IMG/VR virus record: IMGVR_UViG_3300012931_000011
Coordinates: 1-37,702 of that record
Length of the DNA stretch: 37,702 nt
Strand: one strand, 5' to 3'
Source of the DNA: a virus
This document shows, piece after piece, positions 5,568-37,441 of this stretch (position 1 is the first letter of the stretch; each line of letters begins with the position of its first letter). The translations under genes and the position numbers were made by a program. Below the pieces are notes generated by a model, which was not told the DNA's origin, did not search any database, and worked only from the letters and a program-made list of their open reading frames with translations.

Positions 5568-7748
5568 TTAGTAGATCCTATATGAAGTTGGTTGAGCGTG
5601 GATACACATAGCATGTAATTGGAAGCCACTTTCCCGGATATTCGTATCAAGCATCTGAGTATCAGACATCTTTAGTTGGAACTGTACTATGTTGCCTTCA
5701 GCTTGAAAATAAACAGGGTGCCACAAACGTGATGCGTTAGCTTCAAATGGAATAGCAGCATAAGAAAACGTATCTAATGTAGAGGTCCCTAATGTTGATG
5801 AAGTTATCAAAGGATCAGTTGATGTAGAGTCAAAGAAGTTAACATCTATTTGGCCATAGCCTGTTTTGTCTACCAGAAAATCTATTTTAGGGATGTAGAC
5901 GTTACGTGCCTGCTGTGCATAAAAGTTATATTCTTTAGTTTTTATAGTGATATTAGCGACACGGCTGATGAGGCCGCCACCTGTATAAGTCCCTGTTAGA
6001 TCGGGGATAGTACAAGTAAAGGTATCAGCATCAATAACTCCAGCAACTTGGAATATCGTATTGTTTATAGTGCCTGTGATCCCTAAGACTCCTTCAATAT
6101 AAATGAAATCTTTTTGTAGTAAGTTATGGTTCTTAGCTGTAATCGTTGCGGTAGTACCAGCAACTACAATATCAGTTATTTGTAGTACAGATGCATTAGT
6201 TTGTACATCAGAATCAAAGACAAACGTATATCCTTGCTGGTTCCCTGCTACTACTTGCCTGAATTTAGCTTGTATTTCACCTGAGTCCCACGTTATATCA
6301 TCGTCCCACGTTATGGTAGTACTGTCCCAGGTCACTCCTGTAGGCGGCTGATAATAGCCAAAACAGGTAATAGAATCATCAAAAAAGGCCCATGTATTAT
6401 TTTTATAGTTATATGCAAGTATTCGATTAGGGTACACAGAATAATCATTAATAGGTATTTTAACGAGGGACCAATAGACCATCTCGGTATAAAAGTCTCT
6501 TATACCATAAACACGGTTAACACCATGATCGACATTATGGATATCGAATACGGTTGTAGGAATATTCTGATCGATACGTTCTACGTTGGAGCCATTACAA
6601 GCCATGATACCGACATTACCTATGCCAAGACATACTTGGTCAAATGGAATAATAGAATGAGTAGATTCAGCACCTAGTTCAGTATTCAATTTAAGCCATG
6701 TAAATGGATATGCTTGGTTGCCTGTATATGCTAGTTCCCAGGTAGATCGTTCAAAATATACTATTAATCTATCTTTAACGAATTCAGCTGTGATAATAGC
6801 TTCTGTCGTAGCAGCATCCATATAGTTGCCTTTACCAGGCGTACTATACCAAGAATCAATGGCTACTGGTGACCCAAATTGGCAATATCGTGCTCTGTTA
6901 GGATAATTTTTTTGCGCCGCTATAGAAGCACCTTCCCAGGTATTAAGCGCAATAAGTCTGTTCTTAAATACGATAAGTAACCGTGCACAATTGAGATAGG
7001 AAGATGGAACAGAATCGAGAGGAGGCCTGAAATTGTCCCATTTATATACACCAGCATTAAGGACATATTGTCTCATGTAATTAGTTTCAGATTCATTGAA
7101 ATTTGTTACAAAAAAGATCCTATCTGATGGATCATTTCCTGACCATGTATCGCCCCAAAAGAACTGATAATCAGTTCCTTTCCAGGTTGATGCACCTACT
7201 GTTACTTCATCGCTTAAATTTACCCAGCCGTTATTATATTGATATGCATGAATAGTATCGAATCCAATAAGAAACTCATCATTAATAGCAGCTTGATCAA
7301 AAGATAGAAGGCCCATCACAGGAAGCGAAGGATAGAAATATATTGCAGTAAGAGCATCAGCACCAGTTATGGTAAGTGCTAAAGTGCCAGTATCATAGGT
7401 AGCAGTTGCCGCCCCTGTAGAAAGCAACGTTATTGTGCTACCAACAGGTGTTATAGTATTAACAGTAAATAGTTGATCTGCTACTGAAAAAGATTGGCCA
7501 ATAGCGATAGCAAGGCCAGTGCCGCCAGTAAAAGCACCAGTATTGTCAGTATCATCTAAATAAATCCTTAATCGTGATAATAAAGACGAATTAGAAAAGA
7601 ACGTAGATCCTGGTCTTTTTCTGATACGACCCCTAAAGCAATAGGCATTATCGAGTTCTTCAAAAGCTGTATCAGGAATAAGCCAAGGTTTATAGTTAGT
7701 CCGTTGGCCACTTTCTTGATCATATGGTGCTATAAAGAACTTATCCAT
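5568..7748 (-). CDS. Large tail/nozzle-like structural protein (726 aa)
   Basis: Largest ORF in the genome. It follows a 199-aa ORF, similar to the tubular A/B order of T7-like podoviruses. Assignment is by size and position only. Confidence 0.6.
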   Translation of the reverse strand: MDKFFIAPYDQESGQRTNYKPWLIPDTAFEELDNAYCFRGRIRKRPGSTFFSNSSLLSRLRIYLDDTDNTGAFTGGTGLAIAIGQSFSVADQLFTVNTITPVGSTITLLSTGAATATYDTGTLALTITGADALTAIYFYPSLPVMGLLSFDQAAINDEFLIGFDTIHAYQYNNGWVNLSDEVTVGASTWKGTDYQFFWGDTWSGNDPSDRIFFVTNFNESETNYMRQYVLNAGVYKWDNFRPPLDSVPSSYLNCARLLIVFKNRLIALNTWEGASIAAQKNYPNRARYCQFGSPVAIDSWYSTPGKGNYMDAATTEAIITAEFVKDRLIVYFERSTWELAYTGNQAYPFTWLKLNTELGAESTHSIIPFDQVCLGIGNVGIMACNGSNVERIDQNIPTTVFDIHNVDHGVNRVYGIRDFYTEMVYWSLVKIPINDYSVYPNRILAYNYKNNTWAFFDDSITCFGYYQPPTGVTWDSTTITWDDDITWDSGEIQAKFRQVVAGNQQGYTFVFDSDVQTNASVLQITDIVVAGTTATITAKNHNLLQKDFIYIEGVLGITGTINNTIFQVAGVIDADTFTCTIPDLTGTYTGGGLISRVANITIKTKEYNFYAQQARNVYIPKIDFLVDKTGYGQIDVNFFDSTSTDPLITSSTLGTSTLDTFSYAAIPFEANASRLWHPVYFQAEGNIVQFQLKMSDTQMLDTNIRESGFQLHAMCIHAQPTSYRIY

Positions 7749-11332: not shown

Positions 11333-11968
11333 TTACGATAGGGTTGCCCTGAGATTGGTGATCCATAAATCATTCAATATTCGAGGGACCTCTGCGAATA
11401 CATATCCTAAGGTAACGTTTTGGAACAATGGGTCACTGTACACAGCAGGACGATAGAGGAACCGTGCTGAATAATTGTCCTGTTCAACGCACGCCAATGA
11501 TTCCATCCCCTGAACAATGATTGAATAGACATCATTGCCAAGTGCAGATGCGTTTGGCGTGATTGCGCCTTGTGAAGACAGCATGAAACGGCAGTTATTG
11601 ACCGATCCCCACTCTGATCTCAAGACATTGTTTTCAGATGGATAATTCCATTTTGAAACAAAACCATTTATATTATTCAATTCTTTTGATAATCTTGTGT
11701 GCCCTAATGCCAAATAGGAATCCCTTACTGGGCCTGTGCCGAAGCGGTCCTCGCCTTCAATATTATCCAATATCATGAATGCATCGTTTGTAAGCAATGC
11801 AGATGTAACTTCATCAATGTCAGATAAAGATAAATTTGTTGGCGTATCGCCGTTTACTCCGCCAACACAGTTAACCATACCAGCTGTTGCTGTGAGCATA
11901 TCACGAGTGAGCTGATCTTCTGTCATACGCAATGATAGCCCTAAAAGTTCGGCTGTTTCATTGAGAAC
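11333..11968 (-). CDS. Capsid exon 4 (C-terminal 211 aa)
   Basis: In frame with ORF 11333..11971. The apparent ATG at 11969-11971 is the intron 3 terminus ...AGAAUG. Confidence 0.75.
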   Translation of the reverse strand, partial: VLNETAELLGLSLRMTEDQLTRDMLTATAGMVNCVGGVNGDTPTNLSLSDIDEVTSALLTNDAFMILDNIEGEDRFGTGPVRDSYLALGHTRLSKELNNINGFVSKWNYPSENNVLRSEWGSVNNCRFMLSSQGAITPNASALGNDVYSIIVQGMESLACVEQDNYSARFLYRPAVYSDPLFQNVTLGYVFAEVPRILNDLWITNLRATLS

Positions 11969-14364
11969 CATTCTGTTACTTTATGACCTATCTCTAGGCG
12001 GGGAAACTTCTTCGAATCTCCCTCACTACCTTATCGTGTAGTGTTCAGACTATCGCATACCATTTCTGGTTCTTTTCGTTTAGTCGTTCAGCCTGGACTA
12101 GCAATTCTGCTTCGTGTATAATTATATAGTATAATTGTTTAAATTTAATGAGGATTTCATGGGAAAAACACGAAGACAATATTATAAAAGATCTAAAGAT
12201 TATATTCCGCAACAATACAAATCTACTGATTTGGCTTATATGGCAGGAATTGTTGATGGAGAAGGATGTTTTTATATTGGCAAAGTTCCCAAAAAAGCTG
12301 GAGATGGATATGTTTCCGAACATTATCGAGGTCTTTTGAAAATTGATAATACCAATCAAAGATTGATAAATTGGATTGATAATGTTTTTAGCGGTACTGC
12401 ATCTGCTCGCTGCAGAACAACTTCCAGCAAAAAATTTGAGCGCGATATTTTTACATGGAATTCTACTGGAGATCGACTGCTTGATATATGCGAACAGCTG
12501 TTGCCATACCTTGTTATAAAAAAAGAACAATGCGAAATCATGATTAAGTTTAGAAAAACATACAATGCATCGCTGGGAAGTCATGTGCTTCCTATGGGCG
12601 CACTTGAATCTAGACAGCAGTGTTTGGAAGAAATTCGTAAACTTAATTCGCGATGGCATTTACATCCTTTGAAAAATATTTAAATCCTAGTCCTTGGCCC
12701 TTGTTACCGGTTAGCTAATTGCTACTTCGGACTTCAAGTCAATTAGAAAAGATTTATAGACCCCATACTTTTTAGGGTCTTGGTTCTGTAGTGTACATTA
12801 TTCTGTTACTTTTATGACCTATTTCTAGGCGGGGACTTTCTCTACTTATCCCTCTCTAAGTTATCCCTAGAGTTCAGAGCACCGCATCCATGGGATCATT
12901 ATTATCTACATAAGGTATGTCAATTCCGCCGTTAGCCATTTTCTCTTTAATTTTTTTCGAACAAATATCGCAAAATTTTATAACAGTTTCTTGCTTACTG
13001 GATCTTGCAAATATAACTTTTAAAAGACATTTACTACATAGATAATTTTTTTTATTTCCCATAGTCTTCTCGCTTGCTACGTTCAGGCTGATTAGGAAAT
13101 GGGAAATCATCTTCATAAATCCAATGGGTTATTTCTTTTTCTATACCCCAATATTCGTCAATATTTACAAATAAATTAGATTTATTAGAGAATTTGTCTA
13201 CTCTGTAATCACCATGAAATAACTCATTGCTTTGTGAACAAAGAATTAATGGTTTGCTGATTTCAGGCATAACACTTTTTATATTATTCCATTTCATAAT
13301 CTTGCCCCTTGTCGCCGGTTAGTTGAATACCACTTCGGTTTCCAAGTCTATCAGAGAAGATTTAAAGCAGGCTACAATATTATTTTTAACCTGCTGGTTG
13401 ATAGCAACATACAATCCATAAAATGACATTGTTGCATCGATATCAACACGTGTTAAAGGTGTGGCTGGTGGTGTTGCCCCAGAAGGACCAAGAGGTACTG
13501 GTGCTGTAGGCAATCTATCATACCTAGCCATACGCAATGTACGACCACCTTTAGAAGGTAATCTTTTAGAGATAGCTCCGAGCTTGTAAATCAAATTAGG
13601 TGTTCTTACCGATAGTAAGATATCATCCATAGTTTGCTGGACCATTCTATTACTTTATGACCTGTTGCCAGGCGGGTAGTCATTTCTGCTACCTCTTATA
13701 GTTTCCTATAAGATTGGATCATCGCATACCTTCTCAGGTCCTCGAGGCTTGATCTCTGCGCCTACTTTATTAGCATTAAGCTCTCGCATCTTTTGATACG
13801 CTTGCTCACGATAATTTAACTCGTTTTCAGTTAACCTAATATGCCTTTGGCCAATATCTTTATAATTACCTTTTTCACAAAATTCCAACAAATGTAATGC
13901 TCTTTCTTTTTTATTGTGTAAATAGGGCAATATCCCATGCAAAAAAGTTAAAAGATCTTTTTTATTTGTTATACGCCATTCATATAAAGGTAAACTATTA
14001 GGTCTAGATTTACGAGTGCCACTGATTATTATGCTGCCCAATCCGGTTTCTTTTTTGATGTAATTGATAGAACCATTATTAATCATAGTTATCTTTACGC
14101 ACGGTAAATAATCATATCTATATTTTCTAAAATATTTACCAATCATAAAACATCCGTCAGAATCCATAATTGCTGCCGCATAAATCCAATGCGTTTGGCT
14201 CTGGTTATCTTGCATATCATATCCTTTATTATATTCAACACTTCCTGTGCGAGTATAGCAGAACGAACGTGATATGTTTAGACTTTCCATGTAATCACTC
14301 AAGGTTTAACGCGCCCTATCTCTCAAAAAGGCGCCGGGAGCGTAGTTGTAGTAGTTATTGGCAT
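11333..14364 (-). CDS. Major capsid protein (HK97-fold, N4-gp56-like family by recall), four exons: 14364-14329, 13642-13389, 12795-12774, 11968-11333
   Basis: Exon lengths sum to 36+254+22+636 = 948 nt, giving 315 aa plus stop with no frame break. Spliced product: MPITTTTTLPAP|VQQTMDD...YVAINQQV|TLQNQDP|VLNETAELLG...SDPLFQNVTLGYVFAEVPRILNDLW.... SD aAAGGAGtttagttATG at 14364. Confidence 0.8.
11969..12773 (-). mobile_element. Group I-like intron 3 (805 nt) of the capsid gene
   Basis: P1: exon AGACCCU pairs with intron GGGGUCU, with a G.U at the splice site. 3' end GGUCAUAAAGUAACAGAAUG. Candidate P7: GACUA (12085-12081, inside CUGAACGACUAAA, R-like) with UAGUC (12052-12048, inside GCGAUAGUC, S-like). 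A 7-bp stem (12095-12101 / 12687-12693) encloses the endonuclease gene. Confidence 0.75.
12159..12683 (+). CDS. LAGLIDADG homing endonuclease (single-motif, 174 aa), antisense to its host intron
   Basis: Motif LAYMAGIVDGEGCFYIG. SD aatGAGGAtttcATG. Two TATAAT boxes upstream at about 12115-12133. The overlapping minus-strand ORF 12045..12659 is low-complexity shadow. Confidence 0.85.
   Translation: MGKTRRQYYKRSKDYIPQQYKSTDLAYMAGIVDGEGCFYIGKVPKKAGDGYVSEHYRGLLKIDNTNQRLINWIDNVFSGTASARCRTTSSKKFERDIFTWNSTGDRLLDICEQLLPYLVIKKEQCEIMIKFRKTYNASLGSHVLPMGALESRQQCLEEIRKLNSRWHLHPLKNI
12774..12795 (-). CDS. Capsid exon 3: 22-nt micro-exon u|aca cua cag aac caa gac ccu, encoding (V)TLQNQDP
   Basis: Bounded by the intron 2 terminal G (12796) and the intron 3 5' splice-site U (12774). 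Needed to keep exons 2 and 4 in frame. Confidence 0.7.
12874..13062 (-). CDS. Small CxxC...CxxC zinc-ribbon-like ORF inside intron 2
   Basis: MGNKKNYLCSKC...KFCDICSKK. Start chosen at the internal ATG 13062. Its C-terminal codons overlap the conserved 3' block of the intron. Confidence 0.35.
   Translation of the reverse strand: MGNKKNYLCSKCLLKVIFARSSKQETVIKFCDICSKKIKEKMANGGIDIPYVDNNDPMDAVL
13052..13297 (-). CDS. DUF551-like small ORF inside intron 2
   Basis: MKWNNIKSVMPE...ITHWIYEDDFPFPNQPE resembles, by recall, the DUF551 pattern (W..v.d.lPe ... THWmplPepP). ATG directly follows the conserved 5' block of the intron. Confidence 0.45.
   Translation of the reverse strand: MKWNNIKSVMPEISKPLILCSQSNELFHGDYRVDKFSNKSNLFVNIDEYWGIEKEITHWIYEDDFPFPNQPERSKREDYGK
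13389..13642 (-). CDS. Capsid exon 2 (84 codons + 2 nt)
   Basis: Part of ORF 13319..13645. The ORF's leading ATG is the intron 1 terminus ...AGAAUG, and its tail ...KNNIVACFKSSLIDLETEVVFN is read-through into intron 2. Confidence 0.75.
13643..14328 (-). mobile_element. Group I-like intron 1 (686 nt) of the capsid gene
   Basis: P1: exon GCGCCU pairs with intron GGGCGC, with a G.U at the splice site. 3' end GGUCAUAAAGUAAUAGAAUG. Candidate P7: GAUCA (13754-13750) with UGAUC (13721-13717). The 3' block is homologous to introns 2 and 3. Confidence 0.7.
13706..14215 (-). CDS. LAGLIDADG homing endonuclease (single-motif, 169 aa), sense orientation in intron 1
   Basis: Motif WIYAAAIMDSDGCFMIGKY. 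ATG at 14215 preceded by aAAGGAtatgat. The C-terminal codons overlap the candidate ribozyme core. Confidence 0.8.
   Translation of the reverse strand: MQDNQSQTHWIYAAAIMDSDGCFMIGKYFRKYRYDYLPCVKITMINNGSINYIKKETGLGSIIISGTRKSRPNSLPLYEWRITNKKDLLTFLHGILPYLHNKKERALHLLEFCEKGNYKDIGQRHIRLTENELNYREQAYQKMRELNANKVGAEIKPRGPEKVCDDPIL
14329..14364 (-). CDS. Capsid exon 1 (MPITTTTTLPAP)
   Basis: Strong SD and ATG. The frame hits a stop 2 codons after the proposed splice site. Confidence 0.7.
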
Positions 14365-14416
14365 AACTAAACTCCTTTAATAAAACAAACATTACTACGA
14401 AAATGGATTTTGAGCC

Positions 14417-14513
14417 GGACGAAGCTCGATACGTCCTAGCACGGCGAACACCTATACGCCGTTAGAGTATCAGACTCATGGCTGTCGGCACGGCGAACAC
14501 CTATACGCCGTTA
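14417..14513 (-). promoter_or_regulatory. Capsid mRNA leader with three stem-loops, two of them identical 26-nt copies (14439-14464 and 14488-14513)
   Basis: Minus-sense ACGGCG-uauagguguu-CGCCGU occurs twice, and GGACG-uaucgagcuu-CGUCC once (14417-14436). All three have 10-nt loops of the form UAUnGnnnUU. Confidence 0.6.
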
Positions 14514-14548: not shown

Positions 14549-14578
14549 TAAGAAACATAGCCCAGTTAAGGGCTATGT
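14546..14578 (-). terminator. Hairpin ACAUAGCCC-uuaacu-GGGCUAUGU followed by UUCUUAUU, after the scaffold gene
   Basis: Read on the minus strand downstream of the stop at 14610. Confidence 0.45.
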
Positions 14579-23355: not shown

Positions 23356-23428
23356 AAAACAATAGCTCAGCGGTTAGAGCATCAGCCTGTTAAGCTGAAG
23401 GTTATTGGTTCAAATCCAATTTGTTTTT
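23356..23428 (+). tRNA. trnN: tRNA-Asn (GUU) with an almost all-A/U acceptor stem
   Basis: Manual cloverleaf: AAAACAA / UA / GCUC-AGCGGUUA-GAGC / A / UCAGC-CUGUUAA-GCUGA / AGGUU / AUUGG-UUCAAAU-CCAAU / UUGUUUU / U. No encoded CCA. Confidence 0.75.
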
Positions 23429-23662
23429 CAAGAATAGCCTTTATAACGCTAGTCTTTTGAAATCTATCAAGATTAAAGTTTGAAGATTTAATTTTTAAGA
23501 TTTAAAAGCGGCAAGTTAATAAGTAGCAAGAGAGCAAGGAGATGCCGATATTATCATCGGAATGACCTAGAAAAGTTTTTTTGTATATTTATATGGTCTT
23601 TCTAGGGTTCCTGTATAGGCAATGCTATCGCGAATAAGATAATAATTGGTGTTACAATTTAC

Positions 23663-23878: not shown

Positions 23879-23953
23879 TGGCTCCCCGGCTAGGATTCGA
23901 ACCTAGGACCACTCGCTTAACAGGCGATCGCTCTACCACTGAGCTACCGGGGA
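23879..23953 (-). tRNA. trnN: tRNA-Asn (GUU), canonical bacterial type with encoded CCA
   Basis: Manual cloverleaf: UCCCCGG / UA / GCUC-AGUGGUA-GAGC / G / AUCGC-CUGUUAA-GCGAG / UGGUC / CUAGG-UUCGAAU-CCUAG / CCGGGGA / G / CCA. Confidence 0.9.
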
Positions 23954-32269: not shown

Positions 32270-33160
32270 TTATAATGGTTTTAATAAACAACCTGTTATA
32301 TAACTCGTTATGAATCCATCTTGTGGACCATTTATTTTTAAGAATGACCACCATGTAGAAGGTGAATCAAAAAATGGACCATATACTATTCCAAAACGTA
32401 CATTAGTATTCTGATCAGCTTCAAAAATACACACAGCATCCATAGAATATTGGATATTCTGATAGCTATTTATAGAGCTAGGTCTATATGCAAAATCAAC
32501 TACTTCTGTTGTAGATTGGCCGCTTGGAAAAATCGTTTCAAGTCTACATGTCTGATTGTAGTATACTGAAGGATCACTAGGCAACCCATGTATAGGGAAC
32601 GGTAACGCTGAAAGTACTTCTAGATGTACACAAAAGAAATATATACCATGCACAGCGGTAACATAATATGAATTTATCATGTCCCAACAATGGAATGGAT
32701 CATAATATATATTTGTTGCTTCTAGATACGTAGTCCCTCGAATATCAGTATCTTCACCATCACAGCCAACAAGAACCCCATAATTTGTTCCAACAGCATC
32801 TTGCCAGGTAGGTAATTGATTAGGGCCATTTGATGTTAAAAATTGTTCTAGAGTACCGGTATTTACCACATTCTGTAACGAAGAAACTTGCGTAGTCCCG
32901 CCGCATAAAACAGTATAAATAGGCGCTAATTCTGTCATTCCAGTTCCACCACCAGGTACTGTCGCAGGTCCAAAAGCTGGATTATGATTTATCCCTAACG
33001 AAATTAATGGTGCTCCAGCAGTATGCGAAGGAGCTATAAGTGAAACTGCTCCTATATCATTACCAACTAAGACATTATGGTTCGTTAATGAAACTTGTCC
33101 TGTTCCTCCACGTTCAACTTGGGCTGGATTTTGTGAGTTCCATGCGTTATTTGTTGCCAT
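32270..33160 (-). CDS. Fibre/receptor-binding protein with C1q/TNF-like C-terminal head (trio member A)
   Basis: N-terminus MATNNAWNSQNPAQVERGGTG.... C-terminus ...DTDIRGT..YYDPFHCWDMINSYYVTAVHGIYFFCVHLEV...TNVRFGIV. TAATG coupling. Confidence 0.7.
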   Translation of the reverse strand: MATNNAWNSQNPAQVERGGTGQVSLTNHNVLVGNDIGAVSLIAPSHTAGAPLISLGINHNPAFGPATVPGGGTGMTELAPIYTVLCGGTTQVSSLQNVVNTGTLEQFLTSNGPNQLPTWQDAVGTNYGVLVGCDGEDTDIRGTTYLEATNIYYDPFHCWDMINSYYVTAVHGIYFFCVHLEVLSALPFPIHGLPSDPSVYYNQTCRLETIFPSGQSTTEVVDFAYRPSSINSYQNIQYSMDAVCIFEADQNTNVRFGIVYGPFFDSPSTWWSFLKINGPQDGFITSYITGCLLKPL

Positions 33161-33984
33161 TATGTTCCAATCATTATAAAGCCTGATAGAAAGCTCGACA
33201 TAGGTGAAACTGTATCCAATAACCCTGCATTCAGCCCACCGAATCCTGAAACCATAAGCGAAGGGTAAACAATATCACCCGTATTCAATATAAAAGTGCA
33301 GTTACATACTAATGTATAACCACTCGTAGCTGGTGGAATCACAACATCTTGCAAATATCCTCTATATCCTGAAGAAGGGCCGTTTAGACGCGCCTGGAAC
33401 ACACAGTCTGCTGTACTTGCTATATTTAACGATAAAGTTACCTGTAACGAAAAATAAAATAATCCGTTACGTGGCGCTACAAATTGAGAATTAACAGTGT
33501 CCCAGACAGTATTATCATTACACGTTGTAGATTGGAATATAATATGATAATCAGTACCATTACCGGTTACTGTTTCTTGGCCACCAGCGACATTATTATA
33601 AGCAAAAAAAGAAAATTGCCCGAAAGAATTATCAGTCCAACTAGGGTAAGAACCTGGCCCATTTGAAGTTAATATTTGTCCTGCTACCCCAGGCCCTACA
33701 TCATGAACAGCACCATGGGCAGTTGTCCCTGAACATATAGGACTAAAAGGCGTATAGGTAGTTGTTCCAGTTCCGCCACCCTGTACTTGCATAGTTCCAA
33801 AAACAGGATCATTCAGTAACCCTTGGCTTACTAATGGTATCCCAGCAGCGCCAGGTGCTACAAAACCAGCAGGGTTTACTCCCTGGCCTACAATGACATT
33901 ATGATTAGCTAATGTAGTATTACCAGTACCACCTTTAGCTACTTGAGCTGGATTTTGGCTGTTCCATGCATTATTTGTTGCCAT
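33160..33984 (-). CDS. Fibre/receptor-binding protein with C1q/TNF-like C-terminal head (trio member B)
   Basis: MATNNAWNSQNPAQVAKGGTG...GQILTSNGPGSYPSW... then FSFFAY..VTGNGTDYHIIFQ...NSQFVAPRNGLFYFSLQV...LNTGDIVY. F.AP..G.Y.F is the C1q signature. Confidence 0.75.
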   Translation of the reverse strand: MATNNAWNSQNPAQVAKGGTGNTTLANHNVIVGQGVNPAGFVAPGAAGIPLVSQGLLNDPVFGTMQVQGGGTGTTTYTPFSPICSGTTAHGAVHDVGPGVAGQILTSNGPGSYPSWTDNSFGQFSFFAYNNVAGGQETVTGNGTDYHIIFQSTTCNDNTVWDTVNSQFVAPRNGLFYFSLQVTLSLNIASTADCVFQARLNGPSSGYRGYLQDVVIPPATSGYTLVCNCTFILNTGDIVYPSLMVSGFGGLNAGLLDTVSPMSSFLSGFIMIGT

Positions 33985-36493: not shown

Positions 36494-37441
36494 TTAAGCT
36501 ACGAGCCACCCACCGAACCACGATCGTGGATCAGTTGAACCACCACCATTCAAATCTACTATTTTTGTACCACCATCAACCTGAATTACCACATACGCTG
36601 TATCACTAGCATCCATATCAACAAAGAACGATGCAGTTGTAGAATATTGGCTTGTAGATACTACTTGAACATAAGGGTTACATTGATGCGTAAGATAGGT
36701 TCTATTAGAAGTAACAAGCGATATATACATAGAAGTATGCGATGAGCCTATATCTATTAACATGATACCTACATCAAAATGATATAGCCCAGTAACAGGT
36801 GCTGTAAATGTAGTTGAACTGAAATTGCTCCCTCTATCAAAGACTTCGCTGTTCCATACGCATGTATACGCAGTACCATCACCAGTCACATCAGCAACAG
36901 CAGAAGTACGGATAGCTAGAAAAGAAGGTTGTAATGGTTTAGTCACAGGACCGGTAGAATCAAAATTTATTAAAGTCCCTGTAGCACTTTGCACATAAGA
37001 ACTACCAGTTCCACAAAAAATATGTGTATATGAAGCGCCTGTTTTTGAACCTAAATTAAGAGACTTTGCAGCAAGACCACTTGCTATGTAAACAAGAGTT
37101 GCTGAATTATCGCTTGATATTTCGACTTGACCTGTCCCAGAGTTAAATTTTAATGTACCGCCAGCTGTTGTTATTGAGGCTGGACCAGTGGCAGTAGCGT
37201 TTATTCCTCCAGCTCCAGCAATTATATTTGTTGTTGAACTTGTATAAGATGTACCAAAAGTACATGTTCTAGGAGCATTACCAGTACCTACATTAACAGT
37301 TGCAGCATTTGCATCTGTACTCAAATTTATATCACCATTATTAGCAGTGATACCAGCAAATGACATGGTAGTAGCATTAGCACCAGTTGATGTGAAACTA
37401 GCGCCAGTTGTACCTCCAGAAATAGTATTTCTATATGCCAT
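36494..37441 (-). CDS. Fibre protein with Gly/Thr/Ser-rich shaft and C1q/TNF-like head
   Basis: ...SFLAIRTSAVADVTGDGTAYTCVWNSEVFDRGSNFSSTTFTAPVTGLYHFDVGI...DASDTAYVVIQV. Confidence 0.75.
   Translation of the reverse strand: MAYRNTISGGTTGASFTSTGANATTMSFAGITANNGDINLSTDANAATVNVGTGNAPRTCTFGTSYTSSTTNIIAGAGGINATATGPASITTAGGTLKFNSGTGQVEISSDNSATLVYIASGLAAKSLNLGSKTGASYTHIFCGTGSSYVQSATGTLINFDSTGPVTKPLQPSFLAIRTSAVADVTGDGTAYTCVWNSEVFDRGSNFSSTTFTAPVTGLYHFDVGIMLIDIGSSHTSMYISLVTSNRTYLTHQCNPYVQVVSTSQYSTTASFFVDMDASDTAYVVIQVDGGTKIVDLNGGGSTDPRSWFGGWLVA

What the first reader, a model, noticed from the sequence alone, without database searches (positions are those of the whole stretch)
11333..14364. Major capsid gene is split into four exons by three group I-like introns
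The N- and C-terminal halves of an HK97-fold capsid protein lie 1.3 kb apart. They are in ORF 13319..13645 (...RLPTAPVPLGPSGATPP...YGLYVAINQQ) and ORF 11333..11971 (VLNETAELLG...SDPLFQNVTLGY...). The true start, with a strong SD, is a further 0.7 kb upstream at 14364.

Every insertion begins just after an exon U. That U closes a 6-7 bp P1 helix with a G.U wobble against a guide sequence 9-16 nt inside the insertion: GCGCCU/GGGCGC, AGCAGGU/GCCUGCU and AGACCCU/GGGGUCU. Every insertion also ends ...GGUCAUAAAGUAAYAGAA(UA)AUG with a terminal G.

Joining the exons at these points gives 36+254+22+636 = 948 nt, with no frame break. It also creates ...AINQQVTLQNQDPVLNETAELLG..., restoring a DPVL motif I recall as conserved in this capsid family.

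Introns 1 and 3 show candidate P7 pairs. In intron 3 the pair is embedded in R-like CUGAACGACUAAA and S-like GCGAUAGUC. Making the capsid therefore appears to depend on three ribozyme reactions. A single phage gene with three group I introns has precedent (Staphylococcus phage Twort) but is rare.
Basis: partly seen in the sequence, partly recalled or inferred. Interest (0 to 1): 0.85.

Follow-up and report, generated by a model that had tools for sequence, protein, structure and literature searches.

The report
Capsid gene split by three introns
The major capsid gene of this uncultivated ~38 kb phage is cut into four pieces by three self-splicing (group I) introns. They belong to a large family, missed by standard RNA searches, that has invaded the capsid gene of related phages at dozens of sites, and one of them carries its homing endonuclease gene backwards with its own promoter.

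Summary

- **Exons.** The four minus-strand exons (14364-14329, 13642-13389, 12795-12774, 11968-11333) join to 948 nt in frame. The 315-aa product aligns without a gap, across all three junctions, to more than 100 uninterrupted capsid proteins (up to 85% identity). One of these is a syntenic intron-less gene.
- **Introns.** Each insertion starts after an exon U that forms a U.G pair in P1, and ends in G. Each has the group I core: P3-P9 with the P3/P7 pseudoknot and a canonical G-binding P7.
- **Rfam.** Rfam finds nothing in the window. Two annotated phage group I introns (Tuc2009 head gene, a Bastille-like DNA polymerase gene) also fall below Rfam's threshold.
- **Family model.** A covariance model built from ORF-less relatives finds 259 matches in 98 sequences searched. 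Covariation is overwhelming: 95% of cells paired, 46 of 52 pairs compensatory. P7 was not in the model and still covaries.
- **Family context.** Related phages carry these introns at 30 or more capsid-gene sites, with up to five per gene.
- **Endonucleases.** Introns 1 and 3 encode LAGLIDADG endonucleases. Intron 3's is antisense, with a conserved sigma-70-like promoter. Antisense is the majority arrangement in the family (43 of 58).

Splicing itself is inferred, not shown. Group I introns in phage capsid genes and multi-intron phage genes have precedent, so this is a new member of a known kind with unusual features.

The parts
14372..14377 (-). Shine-Dalgarno sequence AAGGAG of the capsid gene, 7 nt before the ATG at 14364
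   Evidence: Read from the sequence.
14329..14364 (-). Capsid gene exon 1 (36 nt, MPITTTTTLPAP). Its last 6 nt, GCGCCU, are the 5' strand of P1 of intron 1.
   Evidence: Homologues read LPAP|VQQ with no gap.
13643..14328 (-). Intron 1 (686 nt). Elements:
- P1 3' strand: 14316-14311
- P3: 14304-14298 / 13746-13740
- P4 5' strand: 14291-14288
- P6: 14199-14197 / 13762-13760
- P7: G(A)GAUCA 13756-13750 / UGAUCC 13721-13716
- P8: 13739-13736 / 13731-13728
- P9: 13712-13706 / 13701-13695
- P9.1: 13693-13689 / 13679-13675
- P9.2: 13673-13669 / 13664-13660
- Conserved tail: 13660-13643, ending in G
   Evidence: The family model R1 matches the 3' half at 81.5 bits. The 5' half was aligned by hand. P3 and P6 covary among five introns of this type. 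Helices were checked.
13706..14215 (-). Intron 1 homing endonuclease gene, sense strand, 169 aa. It has a single LAGLIDADG motif (AAAIMDSDGCF). Its start overlaps P4'/P6 and its end overlaps P7-P8-P9.
   Evidence: Pfam LAGLIDADG_1 E 4e-4. I-CvuI E 0.005. PHROG 5046 E 4e-16.
13389..13642 (-). Capsid gene exon 2 (254 nt, residues 13 to 97, first two bases of codon 97)
12796..13388 (-). Intron 2 (593 nt). Elements:
- P1 3' strand: 13372-13366
- P10: UGUA 13376-13373 with UACA 12795-12792
- P3: 13360-13354 / 13071-13065
- P4: 13346-13343 / 13311-13308
- P5: 13338-13336 / 13317-13315
- P6: 13307-13304 / 13088-13085
- P7: ACGUAGCA 13082-13075 / UGCUCU 12881-12876
- P8: 13064-13058 / 12894-12888
- P9: 12872-12866 / 12860-12854
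- P9.1: 12852-12848 / 12836-12832
- P9.2: 12830-12826 / 12821-12817
- Tail: 12817-12796
   Evidence: R1 matches the 3' half at 70 bits and the 5' half at 24.6 bits. Helices were checked.
13052..13297 (-). Intron 2 ORF1 (81 aa), in the P6 loop and reading through P6'-P7-P3'. It is weakly DUF551-like. No nuclease motif was found.
   Evidence: Pfam DUF551 E 0.083, below the cut-off. No PHROG match. One homologue in L005.
12874..13062 (-). Intron 2 ORF2 (62 aa, CxxC...CxxC zinc ribbon), filling the P8 loop
   Evidence: Only weak zinc-finger and Lar-like matches.
12774..12795 (-). Capsid gene exon 3, a 22-nt micro-exon (completes V97, then TLQNQDP). Its last 7 nt are the 5' strand of P1 of intron 3. 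Its first 4 nt form P10 of intron 2.
   Evidence: VTLQNQDPVL is nearly invariant in homologues.
11969..12773 (-). Intron 3 (805 nt). Elements:
- P1 3' strand: 12764-12758
- P3: 12752-12746 / 12077-12071
- P4: 12738-12735 / 12703-12700
- P5: 12730-12728 / 12709-12707
- P6: 12699-12696 / 12093-12090
- P6a: 12693-12687 / 12101-12095 (the ORF sits in its loop)
- P7: ACGACUA 12087-12081 / UAGUCU 12052-12047
- P8: 12070-12067 / 12062-12059
- P9: 12043-12038 / 12029-12024
- P9.1: 12022-12015 / 12008-12001
- P9.2: 11999-11995 / 11990-11986
- Tail: 11986-11969
   Evidence: R1 matches the 3' half at 123.9 bits and the 5' half at 20.6 bits. Helices were checked.
12159..12683 (+). Intron 3 homing endonuclease gene on the strand opposite to the capsid gene. 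174 aa, single LAGLIDADG motif (MAGIVDGEGCF). The GAGGA Shine-Dalgarno sequence ends 5 nt before the ATG (about 12149-12153).
   Evidence: I-MsoI E 3e-7. PHROG 5046 E 6e-24. Pfam E 5e-4. 29% identical to the intron 1 enzyme. Shine-Dalgarno sequence read.
12094..12122 (+). Sigma-70-like promoter of the antisense endonuclease gene (TGGACT, 17 nt, TATAAT). Its -35 hexamer lies in the P6a 3' strand of the ribozyme.
   Evidence: Best-scoring site of the scan, 10 of 12. Conserved at a fixed offset in homologous introns: 27 of 34 score 9 or more, against 14% of shuffles.
11333..11968 (-). Capsid gene exon 4 (636 nt with the stop codon, residues 105-315)
   Evidence: This fragment is filed in public databases as a separate 212-aa protein (P0035).

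Best explanation
The capsid gene is transcribed on the minus strand as one pre-mRNA of about 3 kb that contains three group I introns of one family. The family is compact and lacks P2. It has P1, P3-P9, P9.1, P9.2 and a conserved 3' tail GGUCAUAAAGUAACAG...G.

**Splicing (inferred).** Each intron folds into the group I core.
1. An external guanosine bound at the invariant G:C pair of P7 attacks the phosphate after the exon U, which is held in P1 by a U.G wobble.
2. The freed exon end then attacks after the intron's terminal G.
3. Three such reactions give a 948-nt reading frame for a 315-aa capsid protein of the N4-gp56 family.

**Mobility (inferred).** The introns are mobile DNA.
- Intron 1 carries a LAGLIDADG homing endonuclease in the sense direction, with its own ribosome-binding site.
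- Intron 3 carries one on the opposite strand, expressed from its own sigma-70-like promoter. This uncouples it from late capsid transcription.
- These enzymes presumably cut intron-less capsid alleles of co-infecting relatives, so that repair copies the intron in.
- Intron 2 has no recognisable nuclease and lies 22 nt from intron 3's site. It may travel by co-conversion.

**Shown here:** exon continuity, intron boundaries, core structure by covariation, endonuclease homology, promoter conservation.

**Inferred:** that splicing occurs and is autocatalytic, endonuclease activity, homing, and promoter use.
For: **1. Junctions.**
- The 315-aa product aligns at 99% coverage with uninterrupted proteins of 314-317 aa, E down to 6e-177.
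- There is no gap at any junction, and residues V13, V97, V105 and L106 at the junctions are invariant.
- The syntenic intron-less gene in L144/L145 aligns gaplessly. It is 70% identical in nucleotides but 82% in amino acids, which indicates purifying selection.

**2. Splice-site rules.**
- All three window introns have a U.G pair at the 5' site and a G at the 3' end.
- The same holds in homologues at other sites: L008, L012, L020 and L005.

**3. Core structure.**
- Model R1 finds the three introns and nothing else in the window.
- On 141 distinct family members, 95.2% of cells are paired, 46 of 52 pairs have compensatory changes, and 0 of 500 shuffles reach the observed covariation score.
- P7 was not part of the model. 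It is 99.6% paired and covaries.
- A mutual-information scan recovers only the proposed helices. It adds a sixth P7 pair (AU 114, GC 13, UA 7, CG 2) next to a bulged base and the invariant G:C and A:U pairs. This is the canonical G-binding-site layout.
- P3 and P6 of intron-1-type introns covary.

**4. Link to known group I introns.**
- The 5' core matches the Tuc2009 head-gene intron, which the GenBank record annotates as a group I intron (blastn, about 84% over 49 nt).
- It also matches the HNH-containing insertion that splits the DNA polymerase gene of Bastillevirinae phage Smudge (R1 E about 5e-7).
- RF00028 gives sub-threshold hits on ORF-less relatives.

**5. Endonucleases.**

**6. Promoter.**

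**7. Mobility.**
- The window's three sites are occupied in other phages: 5, 4 and 22 loci.
- The introns are more conserved between phages than the exons that flank them.

**8. Not an assembly artefact.** The gene look-up read three contigs carrying the exon-4 product, from two Logan samples, SRR6436070 and SRR15532677. The protein database also lists it under JGI and ENA.
Against: - There is no RNA evidence. Spliced-junction sequences were not found in any collection.
- Rfam RF00028 gives no hit in the window even at E < 10.
- The 5' half of intron 1 is too divergent for the family model, and its P4'/P5 assignment is tentative.
- P10 is convincing only for intron 2.
- Ribosomes entering introns 2 and 3 from the upstream exon would read 23 and 20 codons into the core before a stop. 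This could disturb folding unless splicing is fast.
- Antisense transcription from intron 3 could interfere with capsid mRNA.
- The capsid fold was not confirmed. The AlphaFold model had a mean pLDDT of only 35.
Confidence: 0.9

Rival explanations
1. The insertions are group I introns, but they no longer splice on their own. They would depend on a protein helper, such as an intron-encoded LAGLIDADG maturase or a host chaperone. Capsid production would then be gated by that factor.
For: - Intron 1 has a long insertion in P5 and only a weak 3-bp P6.
- Half of the validated Bastillevirinae introns spliced only in infected cells (abstract of PMC11878797).
- LAGLIDADG maturases are known in bacteria (PMC3984707).
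Against: - The cores are complete and strongly constrained by covariation.
- Most family members carry no ORF at all, yet sit in an essential gene.
- Intron 3's enzyme is made from the other strand, so it cannot be translated from the pre-mRNA that carries the intron.
Confidence: 0.2
2. The capsid gene is dead. Mobile elements disrupted it in a defective or decaying phage genome, and no functional capsid protein is made from this locus.
For: There is no direct evidence of splicing. Gene callers see only fragments (P0035).
Against: - The exons keep frame and show 82-85% amino-acid identity to intact homologues at only about 70% nucleotide identity, with no stop codon or frameshift.
- The boundaries obey the group I rules exactly.
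- Dozens of related, near-complete phage genomes of 34-41 kb carry the same kind of interrupted capsid gene.
- Contigs carrying this gene were read from two Logan samples.
Confidence: 0.03
3. The insertions are not introns. They would be free-standing endonuclease cassettes, with the capsid made from separate polypeptides, or by translational bypass, or by protein splicing.
For: Free-standing homing endonuclease genes are common between phage genes. An HNH gene sits among the structural genes of L144.
Against: - A 12-residue exon and a 22-nt exon that is not a multiple of three cannot be independent gene products.
- The insertions are out of frame and full of stop codons, so they are not inteins.
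- At 593-805 nt they are far longer than the one translational bypass I know of, the roughly 50-nt hop in T4 gene 60 (from memory).
- Most family members are ORF-less elements of 180-200 nt with a conserved RNA structure.
- They show no group II features. There is no reverse transcriptase, and the 5' ends read UUUUG, UAAAA and AAAAA.
Confidence: 0.02

Closest known systems
Group I intron in the major head protein gene (mp4, orf37/orf39) of Lactococcus phage Tuc2009
   Same: - A group I intron splitting a phage capsid gene, with an endonuclease gene inside (annotation).
- Shares the 5' core sequence (J1/3, P3, P4, P5) with this family: blastn about 84% over 49 nt and R1 22.3 bits, E 6e-7.
- Also scores below Rfam's threshold (43.2 bits).
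   Different: - One intron, not three.
- HNH enzyme in the sense direction.
- An unrelated capsid family and a Gram-positive host.
- Only a short part of the 3' half (S/P9) matched the family model weakly (11.4 bits, model positions 117-145); the P9.2 and tail region gave no match.
SPO1/Bastille-type group I introns in DNA polymerase genes of Bacillus phages (seen here in phage Smudge, gp154/gp156)
   Same: - The P4-P5 segment (CCCUAACGUAAAGACGAGGG) is the same as in L008-type members of this family.
- Similar S/P9/P9.1 region.
- Endonuclease gene in a loop.
   Different: - Different host gene.
- HNH nicking enzyme, sense orientation.
- In the model alignment the P9.2 positions are deleted and the tail is only loosely matched.
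- Assigned to the IA subgroups in the literature (PMC11878797). The subgroup of the present family was not determined.
Staphylococcus phage Twort orf142, one gene with three group I introns (Landthaler and Shub 1999; paper not held, details from memory and from citations)
   Same: Three self-splicing group I introns in a single phage protein gene. Short internal exons raise the possibility of exon skipping.
   Different: - A myovirus of a Gram-positive host.
- Not identified as the capsid gene.
- No antisense endonuclease.
- Splicing was shown experimentally there, not here.
crAss-like Zeta-group phages, capsid gene split into five fragments by group I introns (PMC7886860); also the LittleE capsid intron (PMC3706429) and Jug phages (PMC12880540)
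   Same: - Essential structural genes of uncultivated phages heavily interrupted by group I introns with LAGLIDADG or other endonucleases.
- Annotation is broken by the interruptions.
   Different: - Different phage lineages and capsid families.
- Those introns were recognised through endonuclease domains or existing covariance models.
- No family-wide structural model, insertion-site map or antisense arrangement is mentioned in the passages I read.
Nuclear rDNA group I introns with antisense homing endonuclease genes (I-DirII of Didymium, position L2066 introns; PMC3073962, PMC9548176)
   Same: The endonuclease gene lies on the strand opposite to the intron and is expressed from its own promoter.
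   Different: - Eukaryotic, with a Pol II promoter, a spliceosomal intron and a poly(A) tail.
- His-Cys box enzymes.
- The host gene is rRNA.
- Here the promoter is a bacterial sigma-70 type, the enzyme is LAGLIDADG, and the host gene is a protein gene of a phage.

Membership tests
Group I intron | The 5' splice site follows a U that forms a U.G wobble closing the P1 helix with an internal guide sequence. | tested here: met
   All three window introns have it, with 6-7 bp helices. The same holds in homologues at other sites.
Group I intron | The intron ends in a G (omega G). | tested here: met
   All three window introns end in G. In homologues, the boundaries fixed by the protein alignment also fall after G.
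Group I intron | Conserved core with P3-P8 and P4-P6 domains, and a P3/P7 pseudoknot. | tested here: met
   Covariation on 141 distinct sequences: 95.2% paired, 46 of 52 pairs compensatory, 0 of 500 shuffles reach the observed score. P7 crosses P3, was not in the model, and is 99.6% paired. All helices were located in each window intron. Intron 1's P4'/P5 is tentative.
Group I intron | Guanosine-binding site: a conserved G:C pair in P7, next to a bulged base and followed by A:U. | tested here: met
   G:C in 137 of 137 and A:U in 137 of 137. A bulged base (C in 120, A in 15) lies between them and a covarying closing pair.
Group I intron | Match to Rfam RF00028 at the gathering score (50 bits). 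| tested here: not met
   No hit in the window, even at E < 10. ORF-less relatives score 27-33 bits. The control phage introns of Tuc2009 and Smudge also fail, at 43-45 bits, so this test has low power for phage introns.
Group I intron | Splicing by two transesterifications started by external guanosine. | not testable with these tools
   Needs in vitro or in vivo RNA work. No spliced-junction sequence was found in public contigs.
LAGLIDADG homing endonuclease (single-motif, I-CreI-like) | A LAGLIDADG motif with the catalytic acidic residue, and sequence homology to characterised enzymes. | tested here: met
   The motifs are AAAIMDSDGCF and MAGIVDGEGCF. phmmer hits: I-MsoI 3e-7 and I-CvuI 5e-3. 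PHROG 5046 at 4e-16 and 6e-24. Pfam LAGLIDADG_1 scores 21.6 and 21.4 bits, just under the 23.1 cut-off.
LAGLIDADG homing endonuclease (single-motif, I-CreI-like) | Site-specific cleavage of the intron-less allele, and homing. | not testable with these tools
   Only indirect support. The same sites are occupied in many phages, and the introns are more conserved than the exons.
N4-gp56 family major capsid protein (Pfam PF25209, HK97 fold) | Full-length sequence homology to family members. | tested here: met
   E 6e-177 to proteins that carry PF25209 and that JGI names as this family. tblastn hits to annotated capsid genes of cultured phages. The spliced protein itself scores 24.7 bits, against a Pfam cut-off of 27.
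N4-gp56 family major capsid protein (Pfam PF25209, HK97 fold) | HK97-type fold. | tested here: inconclusive
   AlphaFold on a shallow alignment gave a mean pLDDT of 35, which is unusable. A profile search of the PDB gave one weak capsid hit, 9e99_A at E 0.003.
Group II intron or intein (considered) | Group II: a GUGYG 5' end, domain V and a reverse transcriptase. Intein: an in-frame insertion with splicing blocks. | tested here: not met
   The 5' ends are UUUUG, UAAAA and AAAAA, and there is no reverse transcriptase ORF. The insertions are out of frame and contain stop codons.

The most novel reading that the evidence does not exclude
This window is one instance of an undescribed, very abundant family of compact, P2-less group I introns that standard tools (Rfam) do not detect.
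- The family has saturated the capsid gene of a lineage of uncultivated phages of about 34-41 kb. There are at least 30 insertion sites and up to five introns per gene.
- Its LAGLIDADG endonuclease genes are predominantly transcribed antisense, from a conserved sigma-70-type promoter built onto the ribozyme's P6 region.
- That arrangement would let host RNA polymerase express the endonuclease early, independently of late capsid transcription. It might also generate antisense RNA against the capsid pre-mRNA.
- If so, these elements would be weapons or regulators in phage-phage competition rather than passive parasites.
Probability: 0.45. Interest if true: 0.7.

Novelty: new member of a known kind. 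Interest (0 to 1): 0.55.

Why it matters
- **Annotation.** Gene callers and public protein databases record this capsid gene as unrelated fragments, for example the 212-aa P0035. Capsid-based surveys and phylogenies of this phage lineage are therefore corrupted. Rfam's group I model misses the whole family, so intron density in environmental phages is underestimated. The covariance model built here found 259 matches in 0.86 Mb.
- **Biology.** The most highly expressed late gene of the phage depends on three ribozyme reactions, two of them flanking a 22-nt exon. This is a demanding test of splicing efficiency and order.
- **Evolution.** One intron family occupies 30 or more sites in a single essential gene. 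Two endonuclease lineages, one sense and one antisense with its own promoter, go with it. Together they form a natural system for studying how introns and homing endonucleases associate, move and are tolerated.

Tried and rejected
**Searches that gave no useful result**
- Rfam on the window at the gathering score and at E < 10 found only two tRNAs and one chance sRNA hit. I did not take this as evidence against group I, after the controls.
- Megablast of 11 kb of the window against GenBank phages found nothing. There is no cultured relative.
- Exact searches for the three spliced junctions found nothing, in IMG/VR or in JGI metagenome contigs. So there is no intron-less twin of this phage and no transcript evidence.
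- A look-up of NCBI cluster members returned no organism names.

**Structure prediction**
- A close homologue with a 23-sequence alignment gave a mean pLDDT of 35. No fold search was attempted.

**Structural ideas tested and dropped or left open**
- A two-pair P9.0 between the UG after P7 and the CA in the tail. The U actually pairs inside P7, with column 299. Only the G:C pair remains possible.
- An alternative helix between J3/4 and the long L5 loop of introns 2 and 3. It is 7 bp in intron 3 but not consistently conserved in relatives. This is a reading and was not pursued.

**Intron 2 ORFs**
- I looked for a hidden nuclease. Only weak DUF551 and zinc-ribbon matches appeared, and there are almost no homologues in the loci.

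**Rejected readings**
- Group II intron, intein, translational bypass, pseudogene and assembly artefact were each considered. See the rival explanations.

Full report
**1. Observation**

- Joining 14364-14329, 13642-13389, 12795-12774 and 11968-11333 gives 948 nt with no frame break. The product is 315 aa and contains ...AINQQVTLQNQDPVLNETAELLG....
- An AAGGAG ribosome-binding site lies 7 nt before the ATG at 14364.
- The three P1 helices are GCGCCU/GGGCGC, AGCAGGU/GCCUGCU and AGACCCU/GGGGUCU. All are present, and each closes with U.G at the proposed 5' splice site.
- Each insertion ends in G after a shared tail. The 19-mer AGGTCATAAAGTAAYAGAA occurs exactly twice in the window, against 0.06 expected. 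Intron 2 has the same tail with one extra A.

**2. Are the junctions right?**

- A search of about 5.8 billion proteins with the conceptual product returned 1952 relatives. The best 120 are nearly all uninterrupted proteins of 314-317 aa, which cover 99-100% of the query at up to 85% identity. Many are named N4-gp56 family major capsid protein.
- In an alignment of 24 sequences there is no gap at any junction. The residues that straddle them (P10, V13, V97, L99, N101, V105, L106) are invariant.
- A related phage (L144, L145) has the same gene order (portal, small genes, scaffold-like gene, capsid gene, a 337-aa gene) with an uninterrupted 945-nt capsid gene.
- That gene aligns to the window's joined exons without a gap at the junctions. 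Identity is 70% in nucleotides against 82% in amino acids, so the exons are under purifying selection.
- Shifting any junction by one base would destroy invariant residues.
- Cultured phages give only distant hits (about 24% identity), but these are contiguous matches to annotated capsid genes.

**3. What are the insertions?**

*Rfam.* RF00028 finds nothing in the window, at the gathering score or at E < 10. Each insertion carries 0.4-0.6 kb of coding sequence inside the RNA, which could explain this, so I looked for relatives.

*Relatives.*
- The 3' tail motif retrieved 31 IMG/VR loci. About half are true homologues.
- A longer motif retrieved more than 119 loci.
- Many relatives are ORF-less elements of 180-200 nt sitting in capsid genes at other positions. 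In each case the protein alignment places the boundary after a U paired with G, and after a terminal G.
- Three of them give sub-threshold RF00028 hits (27-33 bits, E 1e-4 to 8e-3) aligned on the R and S elements. A fourth scored 28.4 bits in a second batch.

*Family model.* I aligned eight ORF-less members, took the RNAalifold consensus and built model R1.
- R1 finds 259 matches in 98 sequences searched (0.86 Mb).
- In the window it finds only the three capsid-gene insertions. The 3' halves score 123.9, 81.5 and 70 bits. The 5' halves of introns 3 and 2 score 20.6 and 24.6 bits.

*Covariation.* On the 141 distinct best matches:
- 95.2% of cells form standard pairs, against 70% in shuffles and 37-45% when partners are slid.
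- 46 of 52 pairs show compensatory change.
- No shuffle of 500 reaches the observed covariation.

*P7 as an independent test.* P7 crosses P3 to form the group I pseudoknot and was not in the model.
- It is 99.6% paired, with C:G to G:C, U:A to C:G and A:U to G:C or U:A exchanges.
- A mutual-information scan recovers only the proposed helices.
- It adds one more P7 pair (AU 114, GC 13, UA 7, CG 2, no mismatch). This pair is separated by a bulged base from the invariant G:C and A:U pairs. As I know it from Tetrahymena, that is the textbook layout of the guanosine-binding site.

*Architecture.* The family has P1, no P2, P3, P4, P5, P6 with P6a, P7, P8, P9, P9.1, P9.2 and a nearly invariant tail.

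*The three window introns.* All helices can be placed in each.
- The 5' half of intron 1 is too divergent for R1.
- Five introns of its type show covarying P3 (CCUUGAG/CUCGAGG, CUAUGAG/CUCAUGG, CCGAAGG/CCUUUGG, CUGUGAG/CUCACGG).
- They also show covarying P6, GCC/GGC against GGC/GCC.
- Intron 1's P4' and P5 remain tentative.
- Intron 2 has a convincing P10: UGUA, next to the guide sequence, pairs with the first bases of exon 3.

*Calibration against known introns.*
- blastn of an ORF-less member hits the intron of the Tuc2009 major head protein gene. [quoted passage not shown]
- The Tuc2009 record itself says the two halves are 'linked after excision of group I intron'.
- R1 matches their 5' cores at E about 5e-7.
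- These introns also fall below Rfam's gathering score, at 45 and 43.2 bits.
- A 2025 study of Bastillevirinae introns reports the same weakness of the Rfam and GISSD models for phage introns with endonuclease loops (PMC11878797).
- Failing RF00028 is therefore not evidence against membership.

**4. Passengers**

*Intron 1* encodes a 169-aa single-motif LAGLIDADG protein in the sense direction. Its start overlaps P4'/P6 and its end runs through P7-P9.

*Intron 3* encodes a 174-aa single-motif LAGLIDADG protein on the opposite strand, in the loop of P6a.
- Both match I-MsoI, I-CvuI and I-CreI and one PHROG (E 4e-16 and 6e-24). Both sit just under the Pfam cut-off.
- They are 29% identical to each other.
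- The antisense gene has a GAGGA ribosome-binding site.
- About 37 nt upstream of its ATG lies the best promoter-like site of the region, TGGACT, 17 nt, TATAAT, at 12094-12122.

*Is the antisense arrangement an accident? No.*
- Of 58 distinct LAGLIDADG ORFs in the capsid loci, 43 are antisense. Of those, 38 lie clearly between exons.
- Every relative of the intron 3 enzyme is antisense.
- Reading on the endonuclease strand, the reverse complement of P7/J6-7/P6' is followed by TGGACA, 17 nt, TATAAT.
- 27 of 34 such regions score 9 of 12 or better, against 14% of shuffles. 14 of 34 score 10 or better, against 1.5%.
- The -35 hexamer lies 3 nt after the anchor in 20 of the 27.

*Literature on orientation.*
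- I found antisense endonuclease genes in group I introns only for eukaryotic nuclear rDNA (PMC3073962, PMC9548176).
- Some organellar papers turned up, but I did not read them.
- A review of bacterial group I introns mentions none. It lists GIY-YIG, HNH, PD-(D/E)xK and EDxHD as the usual phage enzymes (PMC3984707).
- The search was limited.

*Intron 2* has two small ORFs.
- One is 81 aa and weakly DUF551-like, running from the P6 loop into the core.
- The other is a 62-aa zinc ribbon that fills the P8 loop.
- Neither has a nuclease signature, and they have almost no relatives.

**5. Context**

*The phage.*
- The window is nearly a whole phage genome (the contig is 37.6-37.7 kb), with portal and large terminase genes.
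- It has no relative in GenBank phages.

*Insertion sites.* tblastn and downstream-exon mapping across the loci show introns of this family at about 50 apparent positions in the capsid gene. At least 30 remain after allowing for mapping noise.
- Residue 105 is by far the commonest site (22 loci). This is the window's intron 3 site.
- Residue 13 (intron 1 site) is occupied in 5 loci, and residue 98 (intron 2 site) in 4.

*Introns per gene.* Several genes have four or five. L108, for example, has R1 3' ends at 6224, 6896, 7264, 7817 and 8479.

*Mobility.* Intron 3, with its endonuclease gene, aligns at 72-75% over its full length to introns in phages whose flanking exons are too diverged to align by blastn. 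This fits horizontal movement.

**6. Mechanism**

The best explanation has four parts.
- One late transcript carries all four exons and three introns.
- Three guanosine-initiated group I splicing reactions follow.
- Translation of the joined 948-nt frame gives the capsid protein.
- DNA-level homing is driven by the two LAGLIDADG enzymes. Intron 3's enzyme is expressed from its own promoter, independently of late transcription. Intron 2 possibly moves by co-conversion, since it lies 22 nt from intron 3's site.

Readthrough from the upstream exons stops after 1, 23 and 20 codons inside introns 1, 2 and 3. Introns 2 and 3 may therefore compete with ribosomes for folding. Skipping of the 22-nt exon would shift the frame, so splicing order and fidelity matter.

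None of the RNA or enzyme steps is shown. Exact searches for spliced junctions or intron-less twins found nothing.

**7. Comparison and novelty**

Each of the following has precedent.
- Group I introns in phage capsid genes: Tuc2009 and LittleE (PMC3706429).
- Three introns in one phage gene: Twort (cited).
- Capsid genes in five pieces: crAss-like Zeta group (PMC7886860).
- Intron-rich phage genomes: Jug phages (PMC12880540).

The window's feature is therefore a new member of a known kind. As far as my searches went, four things have not been described:
- the family itself;
- its invisibility to Rfam;
- its saturation of one capsid gene lineage;
- the promoter-driven antisense LAGLIDADG cassette.

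These raise the interest above that of a routine intron call.

**8. Limits**

- The HK97 fold was not confirmed. The AlphaFold model had a mean pLDDT of 35, and a profile search of the PDB gave one weak capsid hit.
- The host is unknown. Related contigs are binned with MAGs of many phyla, several of them Chlamydiota, which may only reflect binning by composition.
- The intron subgroup was not determined.

Noticed in passing
Related loci, e.g. L108:5874-8689, L040, L065, L064, L109, L034: Capsid genes of related phages carry the same intron family at 30 or more different positions, with up to five introns in one gene. Residue 105 (the window's intron 3 site) is occupied in 22 loci.
   Followed up: partly
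window 12094-12683 (+) and 34 related loci: LAGLIDADG genes in this intron family are mostly antisense to the intron (43 of 58 distinct ORFs). They are preceded by a conserved sigma-70-like promoter at a fixed distance from the ribozyme core.
   Followed up: yes
L020:957-1985, L124:1186-2211, L116:4571-5641: At the same capsid site (104/105), other phages carry a sense-oriented LAGLIDADG ORF of about 340 aa, twice the usual length. In L020 it sits upstream of the core, apparently in the P1 loop. Two endonuclease lineages therefore serve one site.
   Followed up: partly
window 23356-23429 (+) and 23879-23953 (-): Two tRNA-Asn(GTT) genes on opposite strands, 450 nt apart. Their G+C content differs sharply, 0.37 against 0.60. 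The G+C-rich one might be host-derived or related to an attachment site.
   Followed up: no
window 14439-14451 and 14488-14500 (-); 14555-14578 (-): An exact 13-nt direct repeat, GTGTTCGCCGTGC, occurs twice just upstream of the capsid gene and nowhere else in the window. It follows a terminator-like hairpin after the scaffold-like gene. This may be a late promoter or a regulatory site.
   Followed up: partly
window 12874-13297 (-): Intron 2 carries no recognisable nuclease. It has a DUF551-like ORF that reads through the catalytic core (conserved peptide NQPERSKRED, also in L005 and L029) and a small zinc-ribbon ORF with a weak Lar-like match.
   Followed up: partly
L146-L166 (genome contigs): Related phage contigs are binned into MAGs of many phyla. 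Five are Chlamydiota, and others are Babeliales and Legionellales. One capsid gene that appears interrupted (the match spans 1337 nt) lies on a 546-kb Actinomycetota contig (L160). This could be a host hint or a binning or assembly artefact.
   Followed up: no
P0035; clusters of P0060 and P0009: Public protein collections hold capsid fragments of 77-212 aa as separate proteins. This is probably the footprint of these unannotated introns in automatic gene calls.
   Followed up: no
window 36494-37441 (-) and 33160-33984 (-): Two ORFs have weak C1q-domain matches just under the Pfam cut-off, possibly receptor-binding tail proteins. Most other large ORFs match no family.
   Followed up: no
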